A stretch of DNA of 64,000 nucleotides from a virus (IMGVR_UViG_3300032893_000041:241-64240); one strand, 5' to 3'. Counted from the stretch's first letter, positions 5,357 to 43,947 are shown. Notes: a model not told the origin generated them from the letters alone. Numbers and translations: made by a program.

Positions 5357-7039
5357 ATGGGCGCCTTGCAGATTATGACCGATCCGCCGCAGGATGATGT
5401 TGATCCGCAGGACGCGGCCGAGAATGCCTTGGTCGGAGGCGCGGAAGGTTACGGTGATCCGGCCACGGGCTATGGCCTCGACATCAACGATCCGTCAGCG
5501 TGGATACCGGACACGTCGTCCGCTCAATCTGCCTTGGCCAAAATGCGTTCGCTGTCCGAGTCTTATCTCGGCGGCGAAGACATGGGGCAGGCATTCGACG
5601 AGATAAAGCAAAGCAAGTTGAACGCCTTGCGCGCGGCCCGCGCCGCGTATCAGCCGCCGGTTGATCGCTCAAACCTCGCCCGGCTGGCGCTTGGCGCGGC
5701 CATGATGCAACCGACGATATCCGGGCATCTAAGCGAAGGCATCAGCAACGGGATACAGGCGATGTTGCCGTGGTTGGCGGCGCAGCGCAACACGGAAGAT
5801 TACAACCGGCAGGGTCTGGCGGGAATAAGCGCTCAGGAGGCAGAGCTTCCGGGCGATATTCTGTCGTCTCGCCTCACGACCGGCACCGATCTCTTGACCA
5901 AGGCACAAGAACTTGAATTCAAGATTCGCGACCTGCAACAGCGCGGTCTATGGCAGCAGATGAGCGCGGCGGCGCGGCTCAAAGCCGCCAACATCATGGC
6001 GCAGGCTAGGCGCGATACCGCGAACATTAATCAGCAAGGTAGCAACGAGCGGCGCATGCAGGGTCTCGTTCAGCAGGCGCAGACGCTCGCCAAGCAAGAC
6101 GCGCAAAACCTCATTGCCATGCATTACAACCTGCCCGCCGATCAATACGACAAGTGGGTGGACGACCGGACCGCCCATATCATGCAAAGCTGGGGATACA
6201 AGCCGGAAGACTATCAGGGTGTGTTCAACGTCGGGCAGCAACCGAACCCGGCGGAGGCTGAACTACAAAACGAACTTAGCCAGGAAGCCGTGCAGCGCGA
6301 CCCTGGCGGGGCTATTCCCCCTTCGGCCGCCGCGCCGGGCGCGTCTGGTCCGCACCCCGGTGACTTCCATGTTCCGACAGGCTCGACTGCCACGCCCCCG
6401 GCGGTTAAGCCTCAGACGGCGGCAGCTCCTCCTCAACCGGCTGCCGCCGTCGCCACCCCGGACGCTACCATAGCGGCGGCTGAGAACGCAACCGGGTCCG
6501 GCAATGATTGGAGCAGAGCTGCCGCTCAGTTAACGCCGCAGGAGCAGAAGGACGTTGATACGGCGGACGAGAATACTAACACTCTGATGATGGCTGAGAA
6601 GGGCCTCAATGACGCGTTGGCGCTGAACGACAAGGCATGGGGTGGGGCGCTGGCGGGTGCGCATGCATGGGTGCAGCGCAATCTGCGCGGCGTCGTGCCG
6701 GGTTATCACATGTCCGATGAGGCCGTCAACACGACCAATTTTCAGAACATCATCGACCAGCAAGTATTGCAGAACCTAAAGGCGTCGTTTGGCAGCACCG
6801 GCATCACGGAAGGCGAGCGCGCTTTCTTACGGACCGTGCAAGGGTCGGTCAATTTGTCGCCGGAGGAGCGGAGGCCGATTCTGGAACGCGGCAAACTGTT
6901 CATTGCTAAGCGGCGTCAATACAACGAGTGGAAGTCGAAGGCTATCCGCGACGGCAACTACCGCAATCAGTCGTACGCGGAATATCTGAAATCGATCAAC
7001 GACCCGATGTACGAGCAGATAGTGGGGAAGACGCCATGA
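5357..7039 (+). CDS. Putative internal virion/ejection protein
   Basis: 560 aa Ala/Gln-rich with Pro/Ala linker; C-terminal FGSTGITEGERAFL-type domain; starts MGAL. Confidence 0.6.
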   Translation: MGALQIMTDPPQDDVDPQDAAENALVGGAEGYGDPATGYGLDINDPSAWIPDTSSAQSALAKMRSLSESYLGGEDMGQAFDEIKQSKLNALRAARAAYQPPVDRSNLARLALGAAMMQPTISGHLSEGISNGIQAMLPWLAAQRNTEDYNRQGLAGISAQEAELPGDILSSRLTTGTDLLTKAQELEFKIRDLQQRGLWQQMSAAARLKAANIMAQARRDTANINQQGSNERRMQGLVQQAQTLAKQDAQNLIAMHYNLPADQYDKWVDDRTAHIMQSWGYKPEDYQGVFNVGQQPNPAEAELQNELSQEAVQRDPGGAIPPSAAAPGASGPHPGDFHVPTGSTATPPAVKPQTAAAPPQPAAAVATPDATIAAAENATGSGNDWSRAAAQLTPQEQKDVDTADENTNTLMMAEKGLNDALALNDKAWGGALAGAHAWVQRNLRGVVPGYHMSDEAVNTTNFQNIIDQQVLQNLKASFGSTGITEGERAFLRTVQGSVNLSPEERRPILERGKLFIAKRRQYNEWKSKAIRDGNYRNQSYAEYLKSINDPMYEQIVGKTP

Positions 7040-7099
7040 ACGTATCGAACTTTTCGACGGCGGTTAACGACCCCATATTTCTAGTGAAGGAGAGGTCCC

Positions 7100-7189
7100 A
7101 TGTGGGTCCTATGGTTGATACTTGGTGTGGTGGTCTTAAGGATCGCCATGTGGCAACTCGGAGTGTGGTTCGTCCAGCGCTTCCGGTAG
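7100..7189 (+). CDS. 29-aa hydrophobic membrane peptide (not in ORF track)
   Basis: AAGGAGAGG RBS then MWVLWLILGVVVLRIAMWQLGVWFVQRFR*. Confidence 0.5.
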   Translation: MWVLWLILGVVVLRIAMWQLGVWFVQRFR

Positions 7190-7199
7190 GAGGCGCCTG

Positions 7200-8843
7200 A
7201 TGGGTGCCCTCGCGGACCTCGCGTTGACCGCCTTAAAGCGGGCGGCAGCGGGATCAGCCACGGGCGCCGGGATGGCCGCCATTACGTCGGGCGGCGATCC
7301 TTCGGCCATCGGGACGGGCGCTATCGGTGGCGGGATTGCCGGCGGGGCGACCACGGGCCTCGGGCTGACGGGCGGCGCTCTGGCCAAGATGGCAGGCACC
7401 ATGCGCGACCCGGCCAACCGGGCGCGGGCCATGCTTTTGAAGCGGATGGAGATGGACAGCCTGTCTCCGTACGAGCTGGGCATGCGGGCCAATCAGGGAC
7501 GACCCGGCGTGACGCCGTTGTTCACCCACGGCAAGCGCAACCTCTTGACGCTGACGGAGATGGGCTATCAGCAACCGGGTCCGGGTCGCAACGTCGTCGA
7601 CGACTATTACAAGCAATTCTTTCAGAACCAGGGCAACCGCGTTCAAAACGCCGTCAACTTCCATCTAGGCGCTGATCCGCGTGCCACGCAGACAGTAAAG
7701 GCATTGCAGACGTTGAAGCAGGCCGCCGCCGACCCGCTGTATAAGGAAGCGTACGCGAACCTTCCGGACTTCCACGATGAGGAGATGGACGACATCTTGG
7801 CACGGGCGGAGAAGCTGGGTGCCTTCGGCAAGATGCAAACGATACAGACGGCGGACAAGAGCGTGCCGCAGGACCTACCACGGTCCGTCGAGTTGGAAGA
7901 CGGAACGAAGGTCTACCGTATGGGGACGCAGCACGCAGACCTCGTGAAGCGCGGCCTGGACTCGATCATCAACGACCATACCGACGACATGACTGGGCGC
8001 ATGGACGACGTTGGCCGCGCCGTAACCGGCCTCAAGAAGCGTTTCCTCGACCGCATGGACGAACTGAACCCGGCATACGCGAAGGCGCGCAAGGCATGGA
8101 GCGATCCGACTACGTCGCAGAATGCCGTTAACATGGGCGTCAAGTTCCTCAGCACGCCGGTCGATCAGATGGACCACTGGGTCGAGAAGTTCGACCACCT
8201 GTCGGACGGCGATCAAGACTTCTTTCGCACGGGCGTGGCCACTGGCATCCGCAACCGCATGCTGTCCGGCACGGAAGGTCAGGATGTGGTGAAGAAGTTC
8301 TTCACCAACAAGGCGTCGCGCGAGAAGTTGCGGGCCATCTTCCCCGATCAAGCGTCCTTCGACGCGTTCGCCCGGAGCATGGACGAGGAACTGCGCATCG
8401 CCGGAAGCAAGAACGTCGTAACCGGCAATTCCCGCACGGCGGGCCGTCAGATCGAGCAGAGCCAGCTCGAGCCGCAGGACCTGGACCTGTTTGGCGACAT
8501 CATGCATCTGGCTCGCGGCAACCCGATTCCGCTGGTCGGCAGCGTGTGGCGCCGCTTGCAGGCCAGGGGCATCGGTCCGGAGACGAGCCACGAGCTGCTA
8601 AAGATGCTGTACGAGAGCGACCCCGGCAAGATCAAGGCACTGGCATCTACATTGCGGGGCCTGCAACGGAAGACGCGCGCCATCCAGACCGGAAAGGGCG
8701 CGGTCGGAACCGGGGTAGCCGGCGGGGCGGGCGCCCTGGCCGGCGTCGATATTGGGCAGGACTTCACGGGTGGGCCGGGTGATGATAGTACGGTGTCACG
8801 CGACGATCCGGTCGACATCGACTCCATTCCTGGTGTACAGTAG
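7200..8843 (+). CDS. Putative internal virion/ejection protein
   Basis: 547 aa; Gly/Ala-rich ends; GNSRTAGR motif typical of phage DNA-transfer proteins; starts MGAL. Confidence 0.6.
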   Translation: MGALADLALTALKRAAAGSATGAGMAAITSGGDPSAIGTGAIGGGIAGGATTGLGLTGGALAKMAGTMRDPANRARAMLLKRMEMDSLSPYELGMRANQGRPGVTPLFTHGKRNLLTLTEMGYQQPGPGRNVVDDYYKQFFQNQGNRVQNAVNFHLGADPRATQTVKALQTLKQAAADPLYKEAYANLPDFHDEEMDDILARAEKLGAFGKMQTIQTADKSVPQDLPRSVELEDGTKVYRMGTQHADLVKRGLDSIINDHTDDMTGRMDDVGRAVTGLKKRFLDRMDELNPAYAKARKAWSDPTTSQNAVNMGVKFLSTPVDQMDHWVEKFDHLSDGDQDFFRTGVATGIRNRMLSGTEGQDVVKKFFTNKASREKLRAIFPDQASFDAFARSMDEELRIAGSKNVVTGNSRTAGRQIEQSQLEPQDLDLFGDIMHLARGNPIPLVGSVWRRLQARGIGPETSHELLKMLYESDPGKIKALASTLRGLQRKTRAIQTGKGAVGTGVAGGAGALAGVDIGQDFTGGPGDDSTVSRDDPVDIDSIPGVQ

Positions 8844-8847
8844 CATC

Positions 8848-9216
8848 ATGGGCGCCATATCCAAGATCATTCAAGAATTGAGGGCCGCCGCTCAGTTCGG
8901 TGACCATGAGATGCGGCAGACGGCCTGGGAGAAGCTGTTGGATGAGCATGCGGTCCAACCGGGTCATATTCGTCCCATTAGTGCTGGAGACCTGGGAGCC
9001 GATCCGTCCTTGCAACACGACTTGGACCGCTACGTCAATCATTTCAACATCTATCACGACCCCAATGCTGAAAAGTACCTGACCGGGGGTGACTGGCGCG
9101 ACACCCACGAGGACGACGCCTGGGAGCACCTAGAAAATATGGAGCAGGACATCCTGGACCAGATAGCCCCAGTGGACGAGAGAGCCGGGGCCATCGCTAA
9201 ATTAAGAGCGCAGTAA
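8848..9216 (+). CDS. Small putative cargo protein (starts MGAISKII)
   Basis: ATG 4 nt after the upstream stop; TAATG coupling to the next gene. Confidence 0.55.
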   Translation: MGAISKIIQELRAAAQFGDHEMRQTAWEKLLDEHAVQPGHIRPISAGDLGADPSLQHDLDRYVNHFNIYHDPNAEKYLTGGDWRDTHEDDAWEHLENMEQDILDQIAPVDERAGAIAKLRAQ

Positions 9217-12200
9217 TGGGTATCAAGGACTTTCTCTTCTCGGTCGCGGAGGAACTGGCGAAGTCGGCCAAGCAGCCAATGCCGCTCAAGGATTGGCAGG
9301 CTTATCTTCGGCCGGGGCGGGTCCTCACCCGGGGTGGCATCCAGTTCCCGCTGCGCAAGGACGAGGTCCAGCACGGGGCGCTAGGGAAGCTGGGTCCGCA
9401 GATGGGGTCGGCCGATGTACTGTCGCCGGACGAAATGGGAACCCTCCTCCACAACGTGCGGAAGTACTCGACCGACATGCCGGAGTTCCAGACCCATCAG
9501 GCCGGGACCACGTCGCGCGGCATGGCATATAATGACCGTATGCACTACAAGGACCAGTACCAATTGCCCGGCCCGAAGCTGGGGCAGTCGGAGGAGCTGA
9601 CGACGTTGCCGAGTTCAGATTTCGTCGCCTCCACCGCGCACTTCGGCGGCAAGCCGGGCCTGCTGTCGTGGTCGCGCACGACGCGGCGGCCGGTGATAAG
9701 TCCCGAGAATGACGTGGTAAACCCAGGCGACGGGGGCGAGACCGCCCAGCACATCGAGGAAATCCAGTCGGACTGGCACCAGCGGGGGCGGGACGAAGGA
9801 TACGCATTGGGGCCGGATGCTGCAGAAGAATATGATCGACTGAGAAATAAACTTAATACTAGCATGAACAGCAATCCCATATATACAGCTTACACGAAGA
9901 CGACGAGATGGGGCGATAAGTCATTTGACTGGTGGATCGATCACGACGGGTCGGGTTTTTCAATTTTAGATAACCCGAAACGTTTTGGTATGACGCCGGA
10001 AGATGTAAGAGACTATACTAGAATGAAGAAATTATATTGGGGCTTGAGGGGCAATAAACCTCCTCCCGCTCCCTACAAGGACACCTACGCCGAGTTGGAA
10101 CTCAAGAAGAACATCGCCAAGGCGATCGACCAGGGCGACTCTTACGTCACCTGGACAACCGGCGACCAGCAGGCGGACCGTTGGGGACAGGCGCTGCGCA
10201 ACACGGTCGACGAATTGCATTGGAAAAAGACGCCGGACGGCAAGTATACGATCATCCCCATGAAAGGCGGCAACGAACTCGGAGCGGACGGGCGCTTCGA
10301 GAACCTGTCGCCGGCCGACCTCGGGGACACCGTCGGCCGCGACATCGCAAAGCGGATAGTGGAGGGGGAGGGGCGCCACCAGCCGCTCAGTGACCAGGAG
10401 AAGGCCCGCCTGGATCAGTATATTCAGGACCGGGATGAAGCTGTCAATCGGTCATCTGAAATTTCGAACCAGATCAGTGATCTGAATCAGGAAAACCGCC
10501 AATTATACGAAACTGAAACAGACGGCGGACGGCAGCGAGTCGATAATCTTACTCGCATGGCGGCCCTGGCGCGAGAGCGTGACCGGCATCAGCACTTGAT
10601 ACGAGAGACTTCTCATAATTGGGACTACAACGATCTGGCCCGCCGTTATGCAGCATTTAACACCATGGGGCCGGACGCAGGCGTCATCACCAGCGACAAC
10701 CTCACCATTGGCGGCCGGGGGATGCGGAAGTTCTATGACCGCGACGTGCCGGCCGCCGCCAAGAAACTGGCCGATCAGTACGGCGGCGAGGTCACCAAGA
10801 TAAAGATACCGGGAGAGAGCGCCGGGTCCGATATTCCACCAAATGTTCATGCCCCCATGGTCACGTTGTTGGCGGAAGGACACCCCAACAGCGGATCTTT
10901 AGATGAAGACGATGTGCACGACAATATTCATCAGATTCTAACATCTGTTGCCGGGGGCGAAGACGAGGGAGCGCCACAATACATAGATGACGCCGCTTAT
11001 CGGGTCATCAAGGCCATCAACGAGCCGCATAGCAACCCCGACATCGAAGATTATGATAATTGGTATTCAGCCCTGAACGGTCTAAAAGGGGCCTTGCAGG
11101 AACATTATCGAATGCAGGCCAAGCCGCAGGAGGTCCACGCGCTGCGCCTAACGCCCAAGATGGTGGAGAACGTGAAGAAGATCGGCCTGCCGCTTTTTAG
11201 TGCTGGCACCGCCGCCGCCATGGGCCTGCCGAAGGACTATTCGCCTGATGGGTCGCCCGCGCAAGGGTTCGCGGAAGGTGGTCTGGTGAAGGGACTATTT
11301 AAAGCAGCTCTCAGACACATAGATACCGGAGAAATTTACACGGGTGCTAATCATTTAGACGCTCTTGCCGATTATGTAAGTAAGAACCACCCGAATTTGT
11401 TAAATGCGTCTGACGCTAGAAACTTAAGCATGGACCTTCCTACCAGCAAGGATGATTTTTTGAATTCCATACTACCTAAGTTGGAAGACGGATTTGTAAA
11501 CAGTAACGGCGATTTTGTAACGCGCCATCAAGCCTTATCCGACATTCGTAATTCACAGCCTATGAACGTGGTGGATGAAGAACTCGGCCTTCATTCTTCG
11601 GATTTAGACAACGAAGGCACTTCAATATATGATCCCCATGTCTTACCTCCTGACATTGAGGGATACATTAAGGAAATATCGCAATTACGTCCGGGAGTAA
11701 CCGACGACGGCAAGTCCGCCCTTGATTATTACTTAGATCACGTACGGCATTACGTGACAAACGTGTATAACGGCGATAAGAAAAAAGTGCGTAACGCAAT
11801 AAATACGCTGACGGAGGCGTGGAATGATCCTCATGCTACAAATGAGCCGTACGGCAATTGGTTAAACGCGAATCAGAAGTTTAGTAATTCCTTGACGGCG
11901 CGCACGCCCTCATCGAATACGAAGTTTGCTTCCGGTGGTCTAATCTCGCGGCCTCAGCCGAAGAAGCCACTGCCGGACACGGAACTGGATGCGCTTACCG
12001 CCAATGCGCAAGACCCGTTTTGGTGGGTGCAGGGTTACCGGGCGCCGGTCGATCCCAACGTATTCTCCTACTGGGAAGACCCGCCGCGCGGCGATACCGC
12101 CGCCGACCCTATATCCGGGACGATCAATGATGTCGGCTCTGCGCTAAATGCGTTCATCGGGTCCGGGATGCAGGACCTTACCCCAGAGTCCGGACCGTTG

Positions 12201-13202
12201 GACATTGCCGCCGCCCTAGGCAATGACCTCGCCACGGTAATGACCGGCGGCGGCAAGCTATCTGAGGCCGTAGCCAAGCCAGCTTTGGAATTGCTTTCCA
12301 AGGTTTCACCGGCATTCAAGCGCATGTCACCACTGGCGATGCTCGGTATCCATTCGAAGGCCAACCAACCAGCCGAACCCGAATCTAACCCTATCTCGGA
12401 TGAACTATGGGACCTACAAGCGGCTAAGAACGCGTATTACGACCCGTATGCGCCGCGCGGATGGAACGTTCCAGAACAGCCGGGTTTGGACATACCGGGC
12501 ATGGCCAGGGGTGGGTCCATCTTCGACCGGCTGTCCGGGCCGCATCGGGCGATGCATGAGGCGCTCTACCGGCTGCCGGGTATCGACGACCTCCCGGAGA
12601 CGCCGCTGCCGGCTGCGTCCGGGGCCACGGGAGTGGCCTCTGGCACCTGGACCCCCACCACTATAGCCGCGACCCAGCCGACGCTTCTCCAGAGCGCTCC
12701 CGTGGGCCAGGACGGGGTGTCTCTGACCGACATCCTCGGGTCGCCGCCGGTCCTGCGCCCAGGCCATCTTCCGGTACCCCCACACCCCGATATAAGTATG
12801 GAGAACGACATGAGAACGTGGAAGACTACCGCCCCACCCGCCATCGAGCCGCTGATTCAGGCCGCCGCGACCCAGCATGGCGTGCCGCTGGCGGGCCTGC
12901 GGGCGCTGCTCGAGCAAGAGAGCGCTTTCGACCCCCACGCGGTGTCGCCGGTCGGCGCCAGGGGGATAGCGCAATTCATGCCGGCCACGGCCAGGGACTT
13001 CGGCATCGACCCCTTCAATCCGACGCAGGCCATTCCGGCCGCCGCCAAGTACCTGCGGGCGCTCTACGACAAGTTCGGGTCATGGGACAAGGCCCTGGCC
13101 GCCTACAACTGGGGCCAGGGAAACGTCGCCCGTCACGGCATCAACGCCTTGCCCAAGGAGACGGCCGATTACGTCGCCAATCTCGGCCCGCAGTTTAGCT
13201 AG
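9216..13202 (+). CDS. Large multi-module (polyvalent-type) internal virion protein with C-terminal lytic transglycosylase (SLT) domain
   Basis: SLT motifs QESAFDPHAVSPVGARGIAQFMPATA and ALAAYNWGQGNV; EEIQSDWHQ motif; internal FAEGG/FASGG/MARGG junctions. Confidence 0.8.
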   Translation: MGIKDFLFSVAEELAKSAKQPMPLKDWQAYLRPGRVLTRGGIQFPLRKDEVQHGALGKLGPQMGSADVLSPDEMGTLLHNVRKYSTDMPEFQTHQAGTTSRGMAYNDRMHYKDQYQLPGPKLGQSEELTTLPSSDFVASTAHFGGKPGLLSWSRTTRRPVISPENDVVNPGDGGETAQHIEEIQSDWHQRGRDEGYALGPDAAEEYDRLRNKLNTSMNSNPIYTAYTKTTRWGDKSFDWWIDHDGSGFSILDNPKRFGMTPEDVRDYTRMKKLYWGLRGNKPPPAPYKDTYAELELKKNIAKAIDQGDSYVTWTTGDQQADRWGQALRNTVDELHWKKTPDGKYTIIPMKGGNELGADGRFENLSPADLGDTVGRDIAKRIVEGEGRHQPLSDQEKARLDQYIQDRDEAVNRSSEISNQISDLNQENRQLYETETDGGRQRVDNLTRMAALARERDRHQHLIRETSHNWDYNDLARRYAAFNTMGPDAGVITSDNLTIGGRGMRKFYDRDVPAAAKKLADQYGGEVTKIKIPGESAGSDIPPNVHAPMVTLLAEGHPNSGSLDEDDVHDNIHQILTSVAGGEDEGAPQYIDDAAYRVIKAINEPHSNPDIEDYDNWYSALNGLKGALQEHYRMQAKPQEVHALRLTPKMVENVKKIGLPLFSAGTAAAMGLPKDYSPDGSPAQGFAEGGLVKGLFKAALRHIDTGEIYTGANHLDALADYVSKNHPNLLNASDARNLSMDLPTSKDDFLNSILPKLEDGFVNSNGDFVTRHQALSDIRNSQPMNVVDEELGLHSSDLDNEGTSIYDPHVLPPDIEGYIKEISQLRPGVTDDGKSALDYYLDHVRHYVTNVYNGDKKKVRNAINTLTEAWNDPHATNEPYGNWLNANQKFSNSLTARTPSSNTKFASGGLISRPQPKKPLPDTELDALTANAQDPFWWVQGYRAPVDPNVFSYWEDPPRGDTAADPISGTINDVGSALNAFIGSGMQDLTPESGPLDIAAALGNDLATVMTGGGKLSEAVAKPALELLSKVSPAFKRMSPLAMLGIHSKANQPAEPESNPISDELWDLQAAKNAYYDPYAPRGWNVPEQPGLDIPGMARGGSIFDRLSGPHRAMHEALYRLPGIDDLPETPLPAASGATGVASGTWTPTTIAATQPTLLQSAPVGQDGVSLTDILGSPPVLRPGHLPVPPHPDISMENDMRTWKTTAPPAIEPLIQAAATQHGVPLAGLRALLEQESAFDPHAVSPVGARGIAQFMPATARDFGIDPFNPTQAIPAAAKYLRALYDKFGSWDKALAAYNWGQGNVARHGINALPKETADYVANLGPQFS

Positions 13203-13452: not shown

Positions 13453-13633
13453 TTTCCACTCCGAACTGAACGTAAAGGACCAGCGACATGGGGAAGAACA
13501 ATACGACAGGTTCCCCAGGTGACGCCGCCAGATACACGCCTTGTGGCGTTATTTGGGCATCATACCCGTCGTAGGAATTAGACGCCTTTGGTCGTCCAAT
13601 GACGAGGTCCCGACTAATTATTACGCGGTCCAT
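13436..13633 (-). CDS. Hypothetical protein
   Basis: 65 aa; coupled to the DHH gene (TGATG). Confidence 0.45.
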   Translation of the reverse strand: MDRVIISRDLVIGRPKASNSYDGYDAQITPQGVYLAASPGEPVVLFFPMSLVLYVQFGVENASKD

Positions 13634-14475
13634 CAGAGCAGCCCCAGCTCTGCCAGTTTGTTGAATGGGACCTCGAACCCGGCGGCGTTCTTGTGTCCGC
13701 CGCCGCCGTAGCGGAAGGCAATGACCGACACGTCCTCACCGTCCGGACGCGACCGAAGGGAGAAGACGCGGCCGGACGGTGTGTCCCAGTAGCAGGCAGC
13801 GAACGGGTGATCTTTTGCCATCATGTGGCCGGCATCGGAGGTCATGGTGTAAGGCAGGCTGGCTACCGGGACCTCGATGCCGCCGATGGTCATGAAGCGC
13901 TTGCAGACCTTTACCAGTTCCCGAACGTCCTTGTCGTGCTTCTTCATGATCGCGGCGCCCTCGTTGCGCCAGTCGGCCAGGAAGACCTCGTCCTTCGACC
14001 GGCGAACGAAATCGGTCCAGGTTTCAAGATCATATTCTTCTGCGAACAGCCGCGCCGTGATTTCACGCGTCCCGTCGTACTCGAACTTCCAGAGGTCGCG
14101 GTCCTCGACGATGTCGATGAGCGGCGGGCGCGGCATGCTGGGATTATAGAAATCCCAAGCGAGGCCGGCGCCAGACCGCAACATATCGAATGCGATGTTC
14201 AGATTATCGGACCCCTTGATGTTGGCGAGGTCCGCGATGGCGGACTTGTGGTGGTCGATAATGAGGACGCTGGACGCCTTGCGCGCCATCTCTTCCACGA
14301 CCTCCCGCTTGTAGGAGAAGTCCACCATGATGACTTCCCGGTCGGTCACGTCCGGTGGTTCCTTCTGGTAGATGCCGGGGTAGAGTTCGACCTCTCCCTT
14401 GTACGCGTTCCAGACGACCCAGGCGGCGGTAAAGCCGTCCTGGCAGTTGGCGTGGTAGATGCAGAGCGGCTTCAT
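13633..14475 (-). CDS. DHH/DHHA1-family phosphoesterase
   Basis: YHANCQDG, VDFSY, IDHHKS, EDRDLW and GGGGHKNAAGF motifs; GGAGG RBS. Confidence 0.9.
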   Translation of the reverse strand: MKPLCIYHANCQDGFTAAWVVWNAYKGEVELYPGIYQKEPPDVTDREVIMVDFSYKREVVEEMARKASSVLIIDHHKSAIADLANIKGSDNLNIAFDMLRSGAGLAWDFYNPSMPRPPLIDIVEDRDLWKFEYDGTREITARLFAEEYDLETWTDFVRRSKDEVFLADWRNEGAAIMKKHDKDVRELVKVCKRFMTIGGIEVPVASLPYTMTSDAGHMMAKDHPFAACYWDTPSGRVFSLRSRPDGEDVSVIAFRYGGGGHKNAAGFEVPFNKLAELGLL

Positions 14476-18724: not shown

Positions 18725-19104
18725 TCGCTTGCCTTCAATCTTTTCCAAACAATCATGGCGAAGTTGGCTACGTCGGCGCATTCCTCCATGGCTTCTTCCG
18801 GCGTCTGATATTGGACCGCCACGGCCAGCTCCTCAACCTCGATGCGCAGCAATTGCAACAGGGCCGGAATGGGAAGCTTCGGCTTGATCAGCTTGTCCTT
18901 ATTGGCAACAAGCTTTGCTTCCATGGCGTCTAGGAAGGTGTTAAGTTCGGGTCGGCGAGATAGGCCACCGAGTTCCCGCGCGTTGCGTATCTCGCCTTTG
19001 AATGCGCCAGGAGGAGCGGGATTTGGACAGTTCACTCGACCGCAATAATATTGCATATCGTCTCCACACTGAAAACACCCCCGGTCGTGACTCATTTTGC
19101 CCAC
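18721..19104 (-). CDS. MazG-like all-alpha NTP pyrophosphohydrolase (MazZ/DUF550-like)
   Basis: EVEE...EECADVANF (ExxE...ExxD) motif; directly downstream of the purZ-like gene. Confidence 0.7.
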   Translation of the reverse strand: MGKMSHDRGCFQCGDDMQYYCGRVNCPNPAPPGAFKGEIRNARELGGLSRRPELNTFLDAMEAKLVANKDKLIKPKLPIPALLQLLRIEVEELAVAVQYQTPEEAMEECADVANFAMIVWKRLKASE

Positions 19105-20216
19105 TCCGGTACGGCGCGGTTGGCGAAATAGCGGATGACTGTGTCTTCGTCCTCCGTCACGTCCTCCTGGTGCGGGCCGAACGAATAGACGTGCTGGCAG
19201 TGCCGGCCTAGGACTTCCTTTTCTATGTTCTCCATCTGGGCCAACCGGTGCCAGAACTCGTTTGGTCCGCGAAGGTAGTCGACGAAGGTCAACGCTACGA
19301 TGTCTGGTCGGTTGAGCGATAACGCGGCGGCGTACTGATCATTGGACCACGTGGCTATACGCCGGATGCGCTTTGAAACGGTGGTGCGCTCGGGTTCGAT
19401 GCCGGGAAAGGCATCTTCCCATCGAAGTTCCTGGCTATCCGGATAGAAAGGACCAGAGTCCCCGATCTGCTCTCCCATTTCATTGAACGAGTGCCCGACG
19501 CGAATGGGAAAGGTACGGACGACCATGGCCACGTTACCGAGAAAGGAGGGGTGTATTCCGGCATCGTTGAAGCCAGAACCGACCCAACAGTCGCGAGAAG
19601 TCGTGTACGGGTAGATATGACCATGGATCAACCCCAGTCCGGTTCCCTGTGGAATTTCGACGGTAACGGCAGCGCGATTTTCAAGATATTCGTTTAGATT
19701 GAGGTCATCGATGTAGGGCGCAATCTTTGGCTCGCCAGCAGCGACGCGCGCCCGGCGCAGCACCTTGCCGGCCAATGTCTGGCCGACGCCCTTTTGGATG
19801 GCGCCATACTTGATGCCGGGCGACTGCTCGATGTCCTTCGCTGCCGCCTTGGCTTCCTCGGTGATGATCGAGGCGCGCGGATGGATGACGAGGCGTTGTA
19901 TGATGCCGCCGTGCGTTCTTTCGCATTCAGCAATCTCTCGCTTTAACGTGGCCACGTCGATGATGGACCCGCCGTTGATGTACACCTTGGACTCACGGCG
20001 GATGACGCCCACGGTCGGCAGATGGTAACAGATGAACTTGGTGCCGTTCTTGTACTGGGTCGTGTGACCCGCCTGCGCCCCGGCGTTCGTTGTGGCGATA
20101 TCGACGCCCTCGGAGCAGGCGTTATGCGCCAGCCACGCCGCAATCTGCCCCTTGCCTTCGGACCCAAATTGTCCACCGACCAGGACCGCCGCACTGCCTT
20201 TTTCTGCCCACTTCAT
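19092..20216 (-). CDS. purZ: PurZ/PurZ0-like adenylosuccinate synthetase paralogue (2-aminoadenine pathway)
   Basis: PurA-fold motifs with Ser replacing the catalytic Asp (GGQFGSEGKG vs GDEGKG); AGHT, YPYTTSRD, RTFPIRVG, ERTTVSKRIRR, LTFVDY. Confidence 0.85.
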   Translation of the reverse strand: MKWAEKGSAAVLVGGQFGSEGKGQIAAWLAHNACSEGVDIATTNAGAQAGHTTQYKNGTKFICYHLPTVGVIRRESKVYINGGSIIDVATLKREIAECERTHGGIIQRLVIHPRASIITEEAKAAAKDIEQSPGIKYGAIQKGVGQTLAGKVLRRARVAAGEPKIAPYIDDLNLNEYLENRAAVTVEIPQGTGLGLIHGHIYPYTTSRDCWVGSGFNDAGIHPSFLGNVAMVVRTFPIRVGHSFNEMGEQIGDSGPFYPDSQELRWEDAFPGIEPERTTVSKRIRRIATWSNDQYAAALSLNRPDIVALTFVDYLRGPNEFWHRLAQMENIEKEVLGRHCQHVYSFGPHQEDVTEDEDTVIRYFANRAVPEWAK

Positions 20217-34223: not shown

Positions 34224-34832
34224 TCATCCGGTCTGACCGGGATCGAAAGGTTCGGACTCGCAAATGCCCGAATGTTCTTGCGGCGGGTCCAACTTATCAA
34301 GTTCGGCGGCGATGACCGGCGGCGTATGAGCGCCGTCGATGTCGCGCGTGTCTACTGGGCCGCTTCCCATCTTGGAAAACACGGCCGGCGACGCGCCCTT
34401 GGACGCAAACTGATAGCGCCCGGCGTAGGGCTGCACGGTAGGTTCGTCCAGGATGTGGAAGACCACCTGGGCAATGGGCGCTCCAGCCGGGATAAAGACG
34501 CGGCGCGACGAGTGGTTGGAAATCTCGAGCGTCAGCGCCTTGCCGACCCAGCCGGGTTCAATGACGGTGTTTTGCACGCAGATGCCCATGCGCGCCCAGG
34601 TGGACTTATCGTGGACGACGCCTAGCAAATCCCACGGCATGTTGAAGCTTTCAATCGTCGAGGCCAGCTTAAAGTGCCCCGGCGACATCTCCAGTTCCTC
34701 GGCGACACGCACGTCGTAACCGGCCGGTGAAAGACCAAAAGTCAAGCCATGGGCATGGGTCCGTTCATGGAACGGCTCGATCATGTAGTTGTTGGCGCAG
34801 TATCGGCGAATTGTTTGCGCGGATGCGATCAT
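34224..34832 (-). CDS. dcd: dCTP deaminase (dUTPase-like fold)
   Basis: GLSPAGYDVR, DKSTWARMG, VIEPGW, LTLEISN, IAQVVF, YAGRYQ. Confidence 0.85.
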   Translation of the reverse strand: MIASAQTIRRYCANNYMIEPFHERTHAHGLTFGLSPAGYDVRVAEELEMSPGHFKLASTIESFNMPWDLLGVVHDKSTWARMGICVQNTVIEPGWVGKALTLEISNHSSRRVFIPAGAPIAQVVFHILDEPTVQPYAGRYQFASKGASPAVFSKMGSGPVDTRDIDGAHTPPVIAAELDKLDPPQEHSGICESEPFDPGQTG

Positions 34833-35079
34833 GATACCACGGTCTCCCTTGAACGATTGATTCGCCCGGTCCCTTGCGGTTCCATGGCAACAAAAACATC
34901 TGGCCGTCCGAGTACGCCACCATGCCGTCGAAGTTGCGGGTGGTGCGATGTTCGAAGGAGTCCAGCGGCACGGCCACGAACCCGCCGTCCGCCGCATCGT
35001 TGCCGTGCAACATGCAAGCTCGATGGCGGTACTCGATGACCCAGTTGTTGAGGATGCGAAGCCGCACGATGGAACCTAT

Positions 35080-35626: not shown

Positions 35627-35630
35627 GTAT

Positions 35631-39280: not shown

Positions 39281-39380
39281 AACCTCTCCCCAATACGGTT
39301 TAACAAAAAGTCAGGATAACATCCCGGAGGGGGAGTGTCCATCACGGACAGTGAAGAGAGGTTCACTAGGGTCTCACATA

Positions 39381-39688
39381 ACCGGTTACATTCGCTACGC
39401 TATATGTAACTGGTCTGAGGAGTCGCTACGTAGCGTATCGGCGGAGGGGCAAGAGGCCCGCGCTCCGGCGCCTGTTACTGATGTTACTGGTTTCAGTACC
39501 CCCACTTTTTATACGAGAAGAGAGGGGAGGGGATTATTTGACAGAAGTAACGGAGAGGTAAAAAAGGGGGCGACCTCCACCGGTAACACCCGCTACGCGG
39601 CCTTCTCGGCCGCTCCTGCGGTCGCTACGGTAGCGGATCGGCCCGCTACAGGCCGTTACTTCGGGTAACTAGTATCGATGAGGTAACT
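39381..39688. repeat. Divergent intergenic region rich in GTAAC/GTTAC and GCTAC/GTAGC repeats (candidate origin or pac region)
   Basis: About 9 GTAAC/GTTAC and 7 GCTAC/GTAGC copies in ~310 bp; inverted repeat ACCGGTTACA...TGTAACTGGT. Confidence 0.55.
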
Positions 39689-39690
39689 AT

Positions 39691-40278: not shown

Positions 40279-41821
40279 TGCTCTCGTTGATCTTCGGCCG
40301 CGACGGATAACGCTCAATCCGCTTGCCGCTATCGCGGATATGCGCATGCTTTGGTTGCACGAGGCGCGGCCAAAGCAACTAGCTCCTCCCGGCGACTGGC
40401 TGACGTGGCTTAACCGTTGCGGTCGCGGCTATGGCAAGACGCGATTGGGCGCGGAAGAGATTTTATGGCGGGCCGGTACTAGGCCTAATACGCGGTGGGC
40501 CGTTCTGGCGCCGACGTACAATGACTGCCGCTTTACTTGCTTTGAGGGCGAGTCCGGCATTCTGGCACGGCTGCCGCCGGTCTGCATCACTAAGAATGGA
40601 TGGAACAAGTCGTACCTCGAGCTTAAGTTGTGGAACGGGTCGGAGATTCGTGGATTCGCGGCCACGGAACCGGGCCGCATTCGAGGTCCGCAGTTTCATG
40701 GCGGCTGGTTCGATGAGCTGGCGGCTGCTGCGCGCGAGTCGTTGGAGGAGGCATGGTCCAACTTGCAATTTGCGTGCCGCTTGCGTTACGAGGACTTCGC
40801 CCCTCAGATCATCATCACGACGACGCCGAAGCCGATTCCGATCATCAAGAAGATTCGACTGGCGCCCGGCACGATCACTACGAGCGGCTCGACCTACGAG
40901 AATAAGGAAAACTTAGCGCCGTCATTCTTCGACCGCATCGTTCAGTATGAAGGCACCCGGATCGGGCGCCAAGAGATTCATGGCGAGGAGATCGACCCGG
41001 AGGAAGCCGGCATCGTCAAGCGGTCATGGTTTAAGCTGTGGCCGATGAAGAACGGCTTACCTCGATTTCAGTTGGTCATCATGTCGCTGGACACGGCGTT
41101 TAAGGAAAAGCAATATGATAAGAACAATGACCCCGATTATTCTGCTTGTACTACTTGGGGCGTGTTTAATATACAGACCGGCGTGGAGAGGTTGCCGGGT
41201 GGCGTTGAGAAGAAGAAATATCGTGCCAACGTTATGCTACTTGATGCTTGGCGTGATCATCTCGGGCTACCTGATCTGGTTGATAAAGTACGCGCTCAAT
41301 CTCGGCTGACGTTCGGCGCCATTGAGACGCCACTAATCAAGAGCGCTCTTTATGGGGTCGTGCCGTCGCGCATCTCGGGCAAGGGGCGCAAGGTCGATCT
41401 GATCGTAATTGAGGACAAGGCTAGCGGCATCAGCCTGATTCAGACGTTGGCCAAGCACAAGGTATTCGTGCACCCTTACAATCCGGACGGCGCGGATAAG
41501 GTGATGCGTCTTCATATCGTGTCGCACATTCCGAATTCGGGCATCGTGTGGATACCGGAGAGCCGCTCGACCATCGACATGGAACCGAGTGATAAGAAGT
41601 TCTCTGCGTGGTCGGATGAGTTCTTGGACGAGGTCTGCACGCAGCCGAACGCCGACTACTGGGATTACACCGATACATTCACGCAGGCGCTACGAGTTCT
41701 CGTTGATAAAGGAATTCTGTCCGTGACCGTGCCGAAAGCGTACGAGAAGGACCCGGACGCATCACCGCCGCCGGGGCGGCGCGGCGGGCGTCGTCGTCGC
41801 CATAATCCGTATGGCAGCTAA
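40271..41821 (+). CDS. terL: Terminase large subunit
   Basis: RPKQ, GRGYGKT, RGPQFHGGWFDE, TTTP; nuclease SLDTA, DYSA, IEDKASG, DYTDT. Confidence 0.95.
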   Translation: MTDALVDLRPRRITLNPLAAIADMRMLWLHEARPKQLAPPGDWLTWLNRCGRGYGKTRLGAEEILWRAGTRPNTRWAVLAPTYNDCRFTCFEGESGILARLPPVCITKNGWNKSYLELKLWNGSEIRGFAATEPGRIRGPQFHGGWFDELAAAARESLEEAWSNLQFACRLRYEDFAPQIIITTTPKPIPIIKKIRLAPGTITTSGSTYENKENLAPSFFDRIVQYEGTRIGRQEIHGEEIDPEEAGIVKRSWFKLWPMKNGLPRFQLVIMSLDTAFKEKQYDKNNDPDYSACTTWGVFNIQTGVERLPGGVEKKKYRANVMLLDAWRDHLGLPDLVDKVRAQSRLTFGAIETPLIKSALYGVVPSRISGKGRKVDLIVIEDKASGISLIQTLAKHKVFVHPYNPDGADKVMRLHIVSHIPNSGIVWIPESRSTIDMEPSDKKFSAWSDEFLDEVCTQPNADYWDYTDTFTQALRVLVDKGILSVTVPKAYEKDPDASPPPGRRGGRRRRHNPYGS

Positions 41822-41827
41822 GCCAAA

Positions 41828-41857
41828 TTGACACGGGAGCGCCGGCTGGCGTAGGAT
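41828..41857 (+). promoter_or_regulatory. Sigma70-like promoter
   Basis: TTGACA-18 nt-TAGGAT. Confidence 0.6.
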
Positions 41858-41863
41858 GGCGGT

Positions 41864-42000
41864 ATGCGGTGGGTAGGCGGTGACTTCCTAGGAGCGCACG
41901 TAGCCCCCATCATCCAGGGCGAGGGTGCCAGTAATGAGTCCAAAGAGCTGTGACACGGCCAGCTACATTATTGGAACAACACCCTCCCCGGATGCTTTTT
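41864..42000 (+). ncRNA. Candidate ~135 nt structured RNA ending in a U-tract
   Basis: Nested pairings CATCC/GGATG, GAGGGTG/CACCCTC, CCAGTAATG/CATTATTGG, AGCTG/CAGCT followed by TTTTT. Confidence 0.55.
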
Positions 42001-42001
42001 A

Positions 42002-42856
42002 ATGGGAGCGCTGTCTCAAATTCTATCAGAGTTGACTAACGTTGCTCGCCAGGGCGTGCGTAATGTTGCCCGCGAGGGTAAGCGCCAGGGTCATGAATGG
42101 GCGACCGCCGGCCCAAACGTCGAGACGAGAGACCCTATCTTGATGTCAATTCCGGAGCGGTTGATGTCTACGTCCGGCGAGCGCAATCGGGTAAACGATA
42201 TCTATAAGTTGCATGAATACTCGCTAGGACCGAACGCCAGCATCGATCCGCATCGGGCGTCGCTGGGCGACCCCTATTTCACGGTGCATAATCACCCGAC
42301 CGGATTTCCGTCGCCTTCGTCGGCAGACCTAAACTTTCATAATTGGATGCCGACGCCGGATAAGCACGAGATGATAGTGGCTGGCGTGCCGCATTGGAGA
42401 GACCCAGTGATGGGTGATTACCAGTGGCGGGGTGAAGACCCGCATTGGATAGGGCTGGGGCCGTTATCCGGCATTTCGCGTTACTCGACGCCGGGCGGCG
42501 TGATCGACCGCGACTCGCAGCGGGATTATGCGTCGAGGGTTTACCAGCACATGGCGCGAGGGTTGACCGACCTCGTAACTAACCCGGACACGACCGTTCG
42601 GTACGTGCCGAAAGGCAGCGGCTCGCTGCATGACGACATCAAGGCCGCCATCGATGCGCCGGACATCGAGCCGTGGGATTCCTATAGACAGTATTTTGGA
42701 AGCTTCCCGTTGCGCAACATGGCCGAGCGCTCGCCTAATGACGTGCGCTACCAATTGCAGATGCATCACCCGCTGGATCAGCACATCTATGATTCGATCT
42801 TCGACGTGATGAAGCGACACGGTGCGCTCGACAAGGCAGAAGGCGGACTGGTCTGA
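42002..42856 (+). CDS. JAB/MPN+ (JAMM, RadC-like) domain protein with C-terminal AEGGLV
   Basis: HNHPTGFPSPSSAD fits HxHx7Sx2D; upstream Glu candidate in GHEWA. Confidence 0.7.
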   Translation: MGALSQILSELTNVARQGVRNVAREGKRQGHEWATAGPNVETRDPILMSIPERLMSTSGERNRVNDIYKLHEYSLGPNASIDPHRASLGDPYFTVHNHPTGFPSPSSADLNFHNWMPTPDKHEMIVAGVPHWRDPVMGDYQWRGEDPHWIGLGPLSGISRYSTPGGVIDRDSQRDYASRVYQHMARGLTDLVTNPDTTVRYVPKGSGSLHDDIKAAIDAPDIEPWDSYRQYFGSFPLRNMAERSPNDVRYQLQMHHPLDQHIYDSIFDVMKRHGALDKAEGGLV

Positions 42857-43947
42857 TGGGAGCGCTCGACAAGATCATCCGCGCAAATCTCGCGCACCTG
42901 GAGGAACTTCTAGGCCATTCGACCGTGCCGGTGGGTCCCGCCGCCCACGAGGAGGCACGACGCGCGGTGTCGATGGGAGTAGCGCCATCATGGGCACAGG
43001 CGCAGGCAAAGGGCCTCCCGCTTGATCCCGTGAGCATTGAGAACCGTGCCAACGCGCTAGGCTTTACCAATCGAGCGTTTCATGGCACGCATCGTTTTCC
43101 GTTCGACGAGATGGATGAAGGTGACCGCCAATTTTCGGAAGACCCAACCGACTATGACTTTCATTCATTGGAGGGCCGCCGGATCGTGCCGGAAGACCCG
43201 GACACGACCGTGTCTCGTTATCTTGGTGCACACATTTCACGCGGTCCGAAGATAGCGCAATACTTTACGGGGTATAAGCGTAGTCCTTATACAGCCGTTC
43301 TAAACCCGATGACCCAAGAATATGAGCCTATAGGTGGAGTTGCTTACCAACATATTGCCATGCCCGGTGGTCGCATCATTCCACTTCGGTTCCGTGGCTC
43401 GCAATATGAGCTGCCGCAGAAGTGGTTGTTTAGTGATTCTGTAAACCGTCGTATGCTACCTGATGAGCGACCTGATTTAAATAAACCGATCTTTGATGAC
43501 CTTGCCGTGGATATCGATGCGGCGACGCACGCACTCCTGGCCGATCCAGAGTTTGCGCGCTCTACGGCGCATGGCGAGGGTACGCCGTCCTTCGACAAAT
43601 TGAGACAACTGAGTGATCGCGGTAATGAATACGACATGCGGCGGTTTGTTCAGGCGCGACACAATGACCTCAATCCGTTGATGATGTCGCCGGGTGAGGA
43701 AGACCCTGATTACCTTGATCCCAATACGCTGCAATCAATCATGGATATTTATCGCGGTAACCTCTTAGGGCGCGGTCATTCCGTGATTCGTTATCACAAC
43801 ACCATGGAAAACGAAACGATGGGTGCTCCATCCGCTGATTCTTACATCGTGTTAGACCCCAGTCGGGTGCGCGGTCCGTCGGCGATCTACGACCCGGACC
43901 TCAGCCACCTAGGCGGGCTGAGTTATTTTGAAGGTGGAGAAGTTTGA
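42856..43947 (+). CDS. Putative ADP-ribosyltransferase (ART-PolyVal-like) with C-terminal FEGGEV
   Basis: AFHGT...LGAHIS..P..AQYF...GGRIIPL...SYIVLDPSRVRGPSAIYDP pattern. Confidence 0.6.
   Translation: MGALDKIIRANLAHLEELLGHSTVPVGPAAHEEARRAVSMGVAPSWAQAQAKGLPLDPVSIENRANALGFTNRAFHGTHRFPFDEMDEGDRQFSEDPTDYDFHSLEGRRIVPEDPDTTVSRYLGAHISRGPKIAQYFTGYKRSPYTAVLNPMTQEYEPIGGVAYQHIAMPGGRIIPLRFRGSQYELPQKWLFSDSVNRRMLPDERPDLNKPIFDDLAVDIDAATHALLADPEFARSTAHGEGTPSFDKLRQLSDRGNEYDMRRFVQARHNDLNPLMMSPGEEDPDYLDPNTLQSIMDIYRGNLLGRGHSVIRYHNTMENETMGAPSADSYIVLDPSRVRGPSAIYDPDLSHLGGLSYFEGGEV

What the first reader, a model, noticed from the sequence alone, without database searches (positions are those of the whole stretch)
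5357..43947. Shared MGAL/MGAI N-terminus mirrors the sequence following internal GG motifs
Seen: otherwise unrelated ORFs begin MGALQ (5357), MGALADLAL (7200), MGAISKIIQEL (8848), MGIKDFL (9216), MGALSQILSEL (42002) and MGALDKIIRANL (42856). The internal junction AEG-GLVKGLFKAAL would expose a similar Gly-hydrophobic amphipathic start if cut between the two Gly. Known: Met is normally removed before Gly, and sortase-type transpeptidases join a C-terminal motif to an N-terminal Gly. Inference (speculative): the N-terminal G-x-L helix is an ejection or targeting signal, or the acceptor for head-to-tail ligation of cargo proteins into a chain.
Basis: partly seen in the sequence, partly recalled or inferred. 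Interest (0 to 1): 0.7.

Follow-up and report, generated by a model that had tools for sequence, protein, structure and literature searches.

The report
Shared N-terminal tag on phage cargo
Six otherwise unrelated internal proteins of an uncultivated tailed phage begin with almost the same few residues, most likely an address label for packing them into the virus head, which offers a testable handle on how short-tailed phages load protein cargo.

Summary
The window is a complete 64 kb phage genome, distantly related to Caulobacter phages KcrB and RW. Five ORFs start MGA[LI] (5357, 7200, 8848, 42002, 42856) and a sixth starts MGI (9216). About 0.06 such starts are expected by chance (Poisson P about 9e-9). 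Codons differ, so selection acts on the peptide. The proteins share nothing beyond the first 11-18 residues.

All carriers lie in the ejection-protein cluster or between terminase and portal. One is a relative of ART-PolyVal ADP-ribosyltransferases. Another carries a RadC/JAB-like motif that scores below threshold. The only close relative, at about 70% identity, keeps M-G-A-aliphatic in 4 of 5 orthologues. Distant homologues lack it.

The claimed mirror of internal GG junctions is partly real. [GM]GA[LI] occurs 11 times against 2.2 expected, and the AEG-GLVKGLFKAAL junction ranks 18th of 16,986 internal windows. Most GG sites, however, are not followed by a tag-like helix.

My best reading, at confidence 0.45, is a lineage-specific capsid-targeting or ejection tag like the T4 capsid targeting sequence. 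Its docking partner is unknown. Sortase-type ligation has no support: there is no sortase, no LPXTG-type motif near any C-terminus and no protease. I rate it a new variant of a known kind, of moderate interest.

The parts
5357..7039 (+). 560-aa internal virion protein starting MGALQIMTDPPQ. Its C-terminal part matches phrog_24990. It has an internal KAWGG-ALAGAHAW at residue 429.
   Evidence: The G001 orthologue starts MGAMQILTNPPQ and keeps the KAWGGALAG site.
7200..8843 (+). 547-aa internal virion protein starting MGALADLALTAL (phrog_5880), with a strong AGGAGG ribosome-binding site upstream.
   Evidence: The G001 orthologue (71% identity) starts MGAIGDLLWTLA. Distant homologues carry about 130-150 extra N-terminal residues and no tag.
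8848..9216 (+). 122-aa protein starting MGAISKIIQELR. It matches no family.
   Evidence: The G001 orthologue starts MGAISKIMRATI.
9216..13202 (+). 1328-aa multi-module ejection protein starting MGIKDFLF. Three [FM]-A-x-G-G sites, with their first Gly at residues 688, 907 and 1099, split it into four parts. The C-terminal part is an SLT lytic transglycosylase (residues 1213-1310).
   Evidence: The G001 orthologue starts MAIKDLLF, so the Gly is not kept.
11268..11312 (+). Internal junction FAEG-GLVKGLFKAAL. It is the one Gly-Gly site whose downstream sequence clearly resembles the N-terminal tags.
   Evidence: rank 18 of 16,986. Conservation could not be tested: the G001 contig ends before it and no homologue of residues 670-915 was found.
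42002..42856 (+). 284-aa orphan starting MGALSQILSEL and ending KAEGGLV. It contains HNHPTGFPSPSSAD, which fits a RadC/JAB-type metal-site pattern only below threshold.
   Evidence: The gene is absent from G001 between terminase and portal.
42856..43947 (+). 363-aa protein starting MGALDKIIRANL and ending YFEGGEV. It is a divergent relative of ART-PolyVal ADP-ribosyltransferase domains of phage polyvalent proteins. The tag is helix 3-20 of a separate N-terminal three-helix unit.
3266..4213 (+). First ejection protein (315 aa). It has an internal GM-GALVSLIDALY at nt 3722 and a KARGG site followed by the family-wide GP.GG..D..PA.LSDGEYV module.
4214..5353 (+). DNA ejection protein (phrog_4287), starting MSIGSFLFEG. 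In relatives the same protein starts MG[VI]LDFLF[QE]G. LKKGGLAKCKGG and ARKGGLALC are conserved islands within a diverged tail.
52760..53977 (+). 405-aa virion-module protein with five Gly-Gly sites (LARGG, HADGG, MAGGG, YDTGG, IRRGG-AIRK). Four are conserved in G001 amid indel-rich sequence.
46701..46880 (+). Small ORF just after the portal gene, carrying NYAKGGAV. The motif is conserved in G001.
43944..46688 (+). Portal protein (914 aa) with a Gln/Ala/Lys/Asp-rich C-terminal extension of about 160 residues. It is a candidate docking site for the tags; this is inference only.
   Evidence: Barrel precedents: PMC12002296 and the PMC4992974 abstract.
47560..48573 (+). Scaffold-like protein (weak Phage_scaffold match). 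It is an alternative candidate receptor for the tags.
49859..50770 (+). Major capsid protein (Phage_capsid_4) with no fused protease part. It is an alternative candidate receptor for the tags.

Best explanation
M-G-A-[L/I] plus a short, mostly helical hydrophobic-periodic stretch is a portable N-terminal address tag. This phage lineage has placed it on its internal virion proteins. These include the ejection proteins encoded at 5357-13202 and two effector-type cargo proteins encoded between terminase and portal: an ART-PolyVal relative and a protein with a RadC-like motif.

The tag would dock these unrelated proteins onto one shared site inside the assembling head. Candidate sites are the portal's C-terminal extension, the scaffold, or the inner face of the capsid protein. 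Docking would get the proteins packaged and place them to leave with the DNA. This works like the capsid targeting sequence of T4 internal proteins.

Shown: the shared tag, its restriction to the virion-internal modules, peptide-level selection, conservation in the close relative, and the cargo-like nature of one carrier.

Inferred: that the carriers are in the virion, that the tag binds anything, and what it binds.
For: 1. Five MGA[LI] starts against 0.064 expected, P about 9e-9. Codons differ and upstream DNA is unrelated.
2. The carriers share no similarity beyond residue 18, so the tag is a short transplantable element and not a sign of paralogy.
3. All carriers lie in two late-gene blocks. 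One block contains a PHROG 'DNA ejection protein', an SLT-bearing 1328-aa protein and phrog_5880. The other lies between the terminase and portal genes.
4. The 42856 protein has 19 homologues in 1.84 billion representatives. Of 15 scanned, 8 match PF18760 ART-PolyVal at E <= 0.01, 6 of them above the curated cut-off. Its model (pLDDT 71, pTM 0.72) matches large phage polyvalent proteins in BFVD, 7 hits at E <= 0.001. It weakly matches a cyanophage A4 pre-ejectosome chain (Z 6.2) and ART toxins (Z 4.2-4.7). Phage polyvalent-protein domains are proposed to be packaged in the head and injected (PMC5512222, passages).
5. In that model the tag is a confident helix (residues 3-20, pLDDT 80-90) in a three-helix unit separate from the catalytic domain.
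6. G001, at 56-71% protein identity, keeps M-G-A-aliphatic in 4 of 5 orthologues.
7. Precedents. [quoted passage not shown] In cyanopodophage A4 the N-terminal helices of ejection protein gp29 intercalate between portal barrel helices (PMC12002296).
Against: There is no direct evidence that any carrier is in the virion or that the tag binds a head component.

The tag is absent from Caulobacter phage KcrB orthologues, from 7 of 7 distant homologues of the 7200 protein and from most ART homologues. Only P0002 has it, and P0018 starts with a near variant, MAGALSRIARRI. Whatever it does is not essential to this protein class.

Only two genomes of the lineage exist in the collections searched, so the conservation evidence is thin.

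In G001 the 9216 orthologue has Ala for the Gly. The strictly shared core is only four residues. Two of the six tags (5357, 7200) are not notably amphipathic.

No prohead protease was found, so the T4-style removal of the tag has no counterpart here.

The same four letters also occur inside ejection proteins of this and other lineages with the Met retained. A purely N-terminal signal does not explain that.
Confidence: 0.45

Rival explanations
1. Module-boundary relic, with or without cleavage. The tag is the helix that normally follows a hydrophobic-Ala-x-Gly-Gly linker in multi-module (polyvalent-type) virion proteins. Where modules became separate genes, the upstream protein ends ...GG plus two residues and the downstream one starts M-G-A-L. 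If a protease cuts at or after the Gly-Gly, free-standing and excised modules would have near-identical N-termini.
For: [GM]GA[LI] is enriched: 11 against 2.2 expected, 6 of the 11 internal, all in late proteins. The 42002 protein ends KAEGGLV, the next gene starts MGALDK, and the 9216 protein reads FAEGGLVKGLF in one chain. In alignment A2, 13-14 of 16 ART homologues keep Gly-Gly at the domain end. It is either followed by two residues and a stop (P0002, P0004) or continues into a helix and further domains (P0003, P0018). Gly-Gly islands are conserved between the window and G001 within otherwise diverged, indel-rich stretches. GG plus two residues plus stop ends the first ejection protein in many related loci.
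Against: The hydrophobic-[AS]-x-GG motif is not enriched over shuffles: 11 against 8.0 +/- 2.9, with 194 of 1000 shuffles reaching 11. Only one of about 14 Gly-Gly sites is followed by a clearly tag-like helix. The best-scoring internal copy, at 7200 residue 59, is not conserved in G001. No protease was found. The RadC-like gene is absent between terminase and portal in G001 (an incomplete record) and from complete KcrB, although both keep Gly-Gly motifs. RadC-type JAB domains are argued to lack the ubiquitin-tail groove (PMC5512222). C-terminal GG tails in downstream versus upstream ORFs number 32 of 159 against 45 of 337, P = 0.06, and the rows are not independent.
Confidence: 0.15
2. Post-ejection function. 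The N-terminal helix acts after release, either by binding or inserting into host membranes or by nucleating assembly of the trans-envelope ejection channel. It would not act in packaging.
For: Four of six tags rank in the top 16 of 60 N-termini for helical hydrophobic moment. Ejection proteins of short-tailed phages refold and assemble in the envelope, and membrane-spanning helices are conserved in some of them (PMC8954989, passages). An amphipathic helix forms the proposed channel of N4 gp52 (PMC13434306).
Against: The same tag sits on proteins whose expected site of action is the cytoplasm (the ART-like and RadC-like proteins). Mean hydrophobicity is low and the tags are short. The 5357 tag runs straight into a Pro/Asp-rich stretch.
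Confidence: 0.15
3. No dedicated function. The shared start reflects lineage history or a mild preference, for example efficient removal of the initiator Met before Gly (established knowledge, not tested here) or helix capping.
For: The invariant core is only four residues. Homologues elsewhere do without it. The 9216 orthologue tolerates Gly to Ala.
Against: The probability from composition is about 9e-9. The starts are confined to one functional class. Codons differ, so this is not a recent DNA copy. The core is kept in 4 of 5 orthologues, although tag identity lies above the whole-protein figure in only 2 of the 3 pairs for which both were measured and below it in the 7200 pair (6 of 12 against 71%).
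Confidence: 0.1
4. An N-terminal Gly exposed by Met removal accepts a C-terminal Gly-Gly-tagged partner in a sortase-like or ubiquitin-like transpeptidation, chaining the cargo head to tail.
For: Two cargo proteins end GG plus two residues, and the next protein starts M-G. Met removal before Gly is expected; this is established knowledge, not tested here.
Against: A six-frame Sortase family search finds 0 matches at E <= 1. No peptidase, transpeptidase or E1-like Pfam family appears in about 65 proteins. No LPXTG-like motif lies near a C-terminus. The Gly-Gly follows an ART-type domain, not a ubiquitin-like fold.
Confidence: 0.02

Closest known systems
Capsid targeting sequence (CTS) of phage T4 internal proteins (IPI-III, Alt)
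   Same: A short N-terminal peptide is the only thing shared by otherwise diverse proteins packed in the head and injected with the DNA, including an ADP-ribosyltransferase (PMC3012670; PMC5512222).
   Different: The phage type, the sequence and the head-assembly system are all different. The T4 tag directs proteins into a scaffolding core and is cut off by the prohead protease (the cleavage is recalled, not read in a call). No protease gene was found here. Packaging of the carriers is not shown.
N-terminal helices of ejection protein gp29 in cyanopodophage A4
   Same: In a short-tailed phage, the N-terminal helices of an ejection protein slot between the C-terminal barrel helices of the portal (PMC12002296). 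This phage's portal also has a long C-terminal extension.
   Different: In A4 one protein does this, using 92 residues. Here six proteins share a tag of 4-18 residues. No sequence similarity was tested or claimed.
Encapsulin targeting peptides
   Same: These are short Gly/hydrophobic/basic peptides, for example GGDLGIRK and GSLNIGSLK as printed in PMC10960027. They load unrelated cargo by binding a pocket on the inner face of an HK97-fold shell protein. The phage's Gly-Gly islands (GGAIRK, GGAVTR, GGKLKIKVKK) and tags look loosely similar.
   Different: Encapsulin peptides are usually C-terminal. The resemblance is by eye only, and no binding test against the capsid protein was run.
Polyvalent proteins of phages (Iyer et al. 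2017)
   Same: The ART-PolyVal and RadC-type domains are typical components, predicted to be packaged and injected (PMC5512222). The fold matches large polyvalent proteins.
   Different: Here the domains are separate small proteins, each with the same N-terminal tag and a Gly-Gly tail, and not one giant chain. In the passages read from that paper, 'glycine' occurs 0 times.
Sortase substrates and acceptors
   Same: A Gly at the mature N-terminus could in principle act as a nucleophile.
   Different: There is no sortase, no sorting motif near a C-terminus, and a single Gly in place of an oligo-Gly acceptor.

Membership tests
T4-type capsid targeting sequence | A short N-terminal peptide shared by otherwise unrelated head-internal proteins | tested here: met
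T4-type capsid targeting sequence | Tag removed by a phage prohead protease at a conserved site | tested here: not met
   No protease family in any called protein. The capsid protein matches only the capsid part of fused protease-capsid PHROGs. Cleavage itself is not testable here.
T4-type capsid targeting sequence | Carriers present in the virion, and the tag sufficient to package a foreign protein | not testable with these tools
   Needs virion proteomics and fusion experiments.
Sortase-mediated ligation | A sortase-family transpeptidase is available | tested here: not met
   PF04203 six-frame search of the whole phage record: 0 matches at E <= 1. The host genome is unknown.
Sortase-mediated ligation | An LPXTG-type sorting motif near the donor C-terminus | tested here: not met
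   Regex over all six frames. The only hit in a real late gene is NPDTG at about residue 54 of the 3266 protein, which is not C-terminal.
ART-PolyVal (PF18760), for the 42856 protein | A direct match to the Pfam model above its cut-off | tested here: not met
   0 families even at E <= 10.
ART-PolyVal (PF18760), for the 42856 protein | Homology to members and a shared fold | tested here: met
   8 of 15 phmmer homologues match PF18760, 6 above the cut-off. BFVD gives 7 hits at E <= 0.001 to large phage multi-domain proteins, with named ART-PolyVal entries only at weaker E (0.018 and above). Matches to solved ART toxins are weak, Z 4.2-4.7.
RadC-like JAB domain (PF04002), for the 42002 protein | A match to the family model above its cut-off | tested here: not met
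   15.9-16.4 bits against a cut-off of 22.1, covering model positions 69-87 only. NCBIfam RadC gives E 0.006, far below its cut-off. The fold was not obtained (pLDDT 35).
RadC-like JAB domain (PF04002), for the 42002 protein | The His-x-His ... Ser-x-x-Asp metal-site pattern (pattern recalled) | tested here: met
   HNHPTGFPSPSSAD read directly from the translation.
Encapsulin-type targeting peptide | The peptide binds a pocket on the inner face of the HK97-fold shell protein | not tested
The resemblance to the peptides printed in PMC10960027 is by eye.
Ubiquitin-like Gly-Gly C-terminus processed by a JAB peptidase | A beta-grasp domain before the Gly-Gly, and an E1-like activating enzyme | tested here: not met
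   The Gly-Gly follows an ART-type domain. No ThiF/E1 family appears in the Pfam scans.

The most novel reading that the evidence does not exclude
The phage runs a portable two-part cargo-addressing code. An N-terminal (M)GA[L/I] helix and recurrent hydrophobic-Ala-x-Gly-Gly-[A/L]-[V/I] islands act as short docking motifs. They fix unrelated proteins, including split-up 'polyvalent' effector domains, to the inner face of the HK97-fold shell or to the portal, in the manner of encapsulin targeting peptides. In addition, the 1328-aa protein is cut at its Gly-Gly junctions, so that each released module starts with the same Gly-helix as the free-standing cargo proteins.
Probability: 0.1. Interest if true: 0.8.

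Novelty: new variant of a known kind. Interest (0 to 1): 0.5.

Why it matters
How short-tailed phages select and load ejection proteins and effector cargo into the head is largely unknown. The reviews and structure papers I read describe where these proteins sit, not how they are addressed.

A short shared tag on six unrelated proteins would be a concrete, mutable handle on that step. It would extend the T4 targeting-sequence principle to a very different phage. It could also serve as a tool for packing foreign proteins into podovirus capsids.

The finding further suggests that ART-PolyVal and RadC-type domains can be delivered as separate tagged proteins and not only as one giant polyvalent chain.

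Tried and rejected
Complex prediction of the portal C-terminal region (residues 715-914, three copies) with residues 1-45 of the 42856 protein gave score 0.00 and verdict 'no answer'. It counts neither way.

AlphaFold2 on the 42002 protein alone gave pLDDT 35, which is unusable. Its ESM-Atlas neighbours include Prok-JAB and RadC clusters, but all lie below TM 0.5 and feature score 0.9. A PDB sequence search gave nothing relevant. A word-index search found only the protein itself.

Foldseek of the ART model against the PDB found 0 matches at E <= 0.001.

The search for shorter stand-alone homologues of residues 670-915 of the 9216 protein returned none of 1137 candidates. The Atlas search of residues 1-690 returned nothing at or above 0.9.

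Searches for more members of the lineage returned only G001 or nothing.

A within-locus scan of 6100 protein pairs for shared N-termini found 7 at the 99.9% null level, which equals chance. It also missed the window's own tags, so the test was too blunt.

The Gly-Gly motif shuffle test was not significant. C-terminal GG-tail enrichment gave P = 0.06 on 48 of the 80 loci, and the rows are not independent.

On internal translation starts at internal MGAL sites: no clear Shine-Dalgarno sequence lies upstream in 7 sites examined, which is inconclusive.

The idea that the RadC-like protein cuts the Gly-Gly sites is weakened by its absence between terminase and portal in G001, its absence from KcrB, and the literature view of RadC.

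A look-up of earlier findings for this genome returned nothing.

Full report
WHAT THE WINDOW IS

The window is almost all of a 64,240-base virus record with direct terminal repeats.

- The late genes on the + strand encode small and large terminase, portal, a GroES-like protein, a scaffold-like protein, an HK97-type capsid protein, adaptor and fibre proteins, and a cluster of ejection proteins.
- The early and replication genes lie on the - strand.
- The nearest named phages are Caulobacter phages KcrB, RW, RLK and GB2A, with 47% portal identity. More distant relatives are Roseobacter and Pelagibacter podophages.

THE OBSERVATION

The six starts are exactly as described. Five of the six ATGs are the first possible start of their open frame. 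The sixth (8848) follows the previous stop by 5 nt and is conserved in a relative.

I tested chance on a crude set of 60 proteins. These came from 85 greedy long ORFs, minus 25 on the minority strand of each block.
- Five proteins start MGA[LI] against 0.064 expected, P = 8.7e-9.
- The tetrapeptide [GM]GA[LI] occurs 11 times against 2.2 +/- 1.5 in shuffles, and 0 of 1000 shuffles reach 11.

Codons for Gly, Ala and Leu/Ile differ between genes and the upstream DNA is unrelated. The constraint is therefore on the peptide, not on a copied piece of DNA or an RNA element. Blastp among the carriers finds nothing beyond the first 18 residues.

WHO CARRIES THE TAG

Four carriers (5357, 7200, 8848, 9216) follow the conserved virion protein at 1437-3032 and two ejection proteins. 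The block includes a PHROG 'DNA ejection protein', phrog_5880, and a 1328-aa protein ending in an SLT transglycosylase. The other two carriers lie between terminase and portal.

The 42856 protein:
- It has 19 homologues in 1.84 billion representatives.
- Of 15 scanned, 8 match ART-PolyVal, 6 of them above the cut-off.
- Its model (pLDDT 71) matches large phage polyvalent proteins in BFVD.
- It weakly matches a cyanophage A4 pre-ejectosome chain and ART toxins.
- It does not match PF18760 directly.

The 42002 protein:
- It is an orphan.
- It contains HNHPTGFPSPSSAD, which scores below threshold against RadC and Prok-JAB.
- I treat this as a lead only.

Both domain types are typical of phage polyvalent proteins, which are thought to be packaged and injected (PMC5512222, passages).

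RELATIVES

Only one close relative exists in the collections searched. It is a 34 kb contig, G001, with 56-71% protein identity.
- It keeps MGALDRIIRSRL, MGAMQILTNPPQ, MGAIGDLLWTLA and MGAISKIMRATI.
- Its orthologue of the 9216 protein starts MAIKDLLF.
- It lacks the 42002 gene.

KcrB's ejection proteins do not start this way. Neither do 7 of 7 distant homologues of the 7200 protein, which carry about 130-150 extra N-terminal residues. Most ART homologues also lack it; one, P0018, starts MAGALSRIARRI.

In the wider family (80 loci) a different but related start, MG[VI]LDFLF[QE]G, marks the phrog_4287 ejection protein. It resembles the window's MGIKDFLF.

The tag is thus a lineage-specific device.

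THE 'MIRROR' OF GLY-GLY JUNCTIONS

The junction FAEG-GLVKGLFKAAL exists. Its 11-mer ranks 18th of 16,986 internal windows for similarity to the tags.

The better-scoring internal copies are:
- TG-GALAKMAG at 7200 residue 59, not conserved in G001.
- GM-GALVSLIDALY at nt 3722, conserved in G001.

KAWGG-ALAGAHAW at 5357 residue 429 is a further internal [GM]GA[LI] site and is conserved in G001; it did not reach the top 25 of the similarity scan.

Most other Gly-Gly sites are followed by basic or mixed sequence, not a tag-like helix.

The hydrophobic-[AS]-x-GG motif is not enriched over shuffles. Even so, the Gly-Gly sites are conserved islands within diverged, indel-rich stretches when the window and G001 are compared.

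The Gly-Gly at the end of the ART domain is kept in 13-14 of 16 homologues. In some it is followed by two residues and a stop. In others it continues into a helix and more domains.

So a Gly-Gly module end and a Gly-Ala-Leu module start do look like two faces of one boundary. The evidence is suggestive, not strong.

MECHANISM

I favour a capsid-targeting or ejection tag (confidence 0.45). T4's internal proteins share only such a sequence (PMC3012670). In cyanopodophage A4 the N-terminal helices of an ejection protein slot between portal barrel helices (PMC12002296). In the ART model the tag is a confident helix in a separate three-helix unit.

The docking partner is unknown. The one complex job, against the portal extension, gave no verdict and is not counted. 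An encapsulin-like mode, binding the capsid protein's inner face, is an untested alternative (PMC10960027).

THE LIGATION IDEA

Nothing supports it.
- No sortase family in six frames.
- No LPXTG-type motif near a C-terminus.
- No peptidase, transpeptidase or E1-like family in about 65 proteins.

The RadC-like protein is an unlikely Gly-Gly processing enzyme. G001 (between terminase and portal) and KcrB lack it yet keep the motifs. RadC domains are argued to lack the ubiquitin-tail groove.

LIMITS

- All of this is sequence inference on an uncultivated phage with one close relative.
- The gene set used for statistics is crude.
- The junction could not be checked for conservation.
- Supplements of the papers cited were not consulted.

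VERDICT

I rate the finding a new variant of a known kind, interest 0.5.

Noticed in passing
window 19092-20216 (-), 34224-34997 (-), 13633-14475 (-): An adenylosuccinate-synthetase homologue of only 374 aa (PF00709, E 6.5e-30) sits beside a dCTP-deaminase/dUTPase-like gene and a DHH-family gene. From memory, this set recalls the PurZ pathway of phages that replace adenine with 2-aminoadenine.
   Followed up: no
window 47096-47542 (+): A GroES/Cpn10-like co-chaperonin gene lies between portal and scaffold. KcrB has a gene annotated co-chaperonin GroES at the same place.
   Followed up: partly
window 55657-58542 (+): A 961-aa late protein is built from many copies of a unit of about 55 residues (...SNLGNTAGTSGV.SG..L..VGG.N.T.SQS...). 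Copy number differs from G001, whose protein is 1071 aa.
   Followed up: no
window 58500-60911 (+): An NAD-dependent epimerase/dehydratase gene, a methyltransferase gene and an unassigned 266-aa gene lie inside the structural module. They may modify sugars on the virion or the host surface.
   Followed up: no
window 3266-4213 (+), residues 224-295; L027:5844-8801: The first ejection protein ends in a family-wide module (A-[KR]-G-G ... GP.G..D.IPA.LSDGEYV.DA...LGDG...). The module also matches tape-measure PHROGs. Its function is unknown.
   Followed up: partly
L019:4675, L027:6633, L083:6938, L086:10943, L087:16545: M-G-A-L, with the Met retained, recurs inside ejection proteins of several other lineages of the wider family. 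No clear ribosome-binding site lies upstream.
   Followed up: partly
L002 (KcrB record positions 57120-59923): In KcrB the large terminase is annotated as two CDSs, with a SAM-dependent methyltransferase gene between them.
   Followed up: no
window 46701-46880 (+): A small ORF right after the portal gene carries NYAKGGAV, conserved in G001. KcrB has a small gene at the same place.
   Followed up: partly
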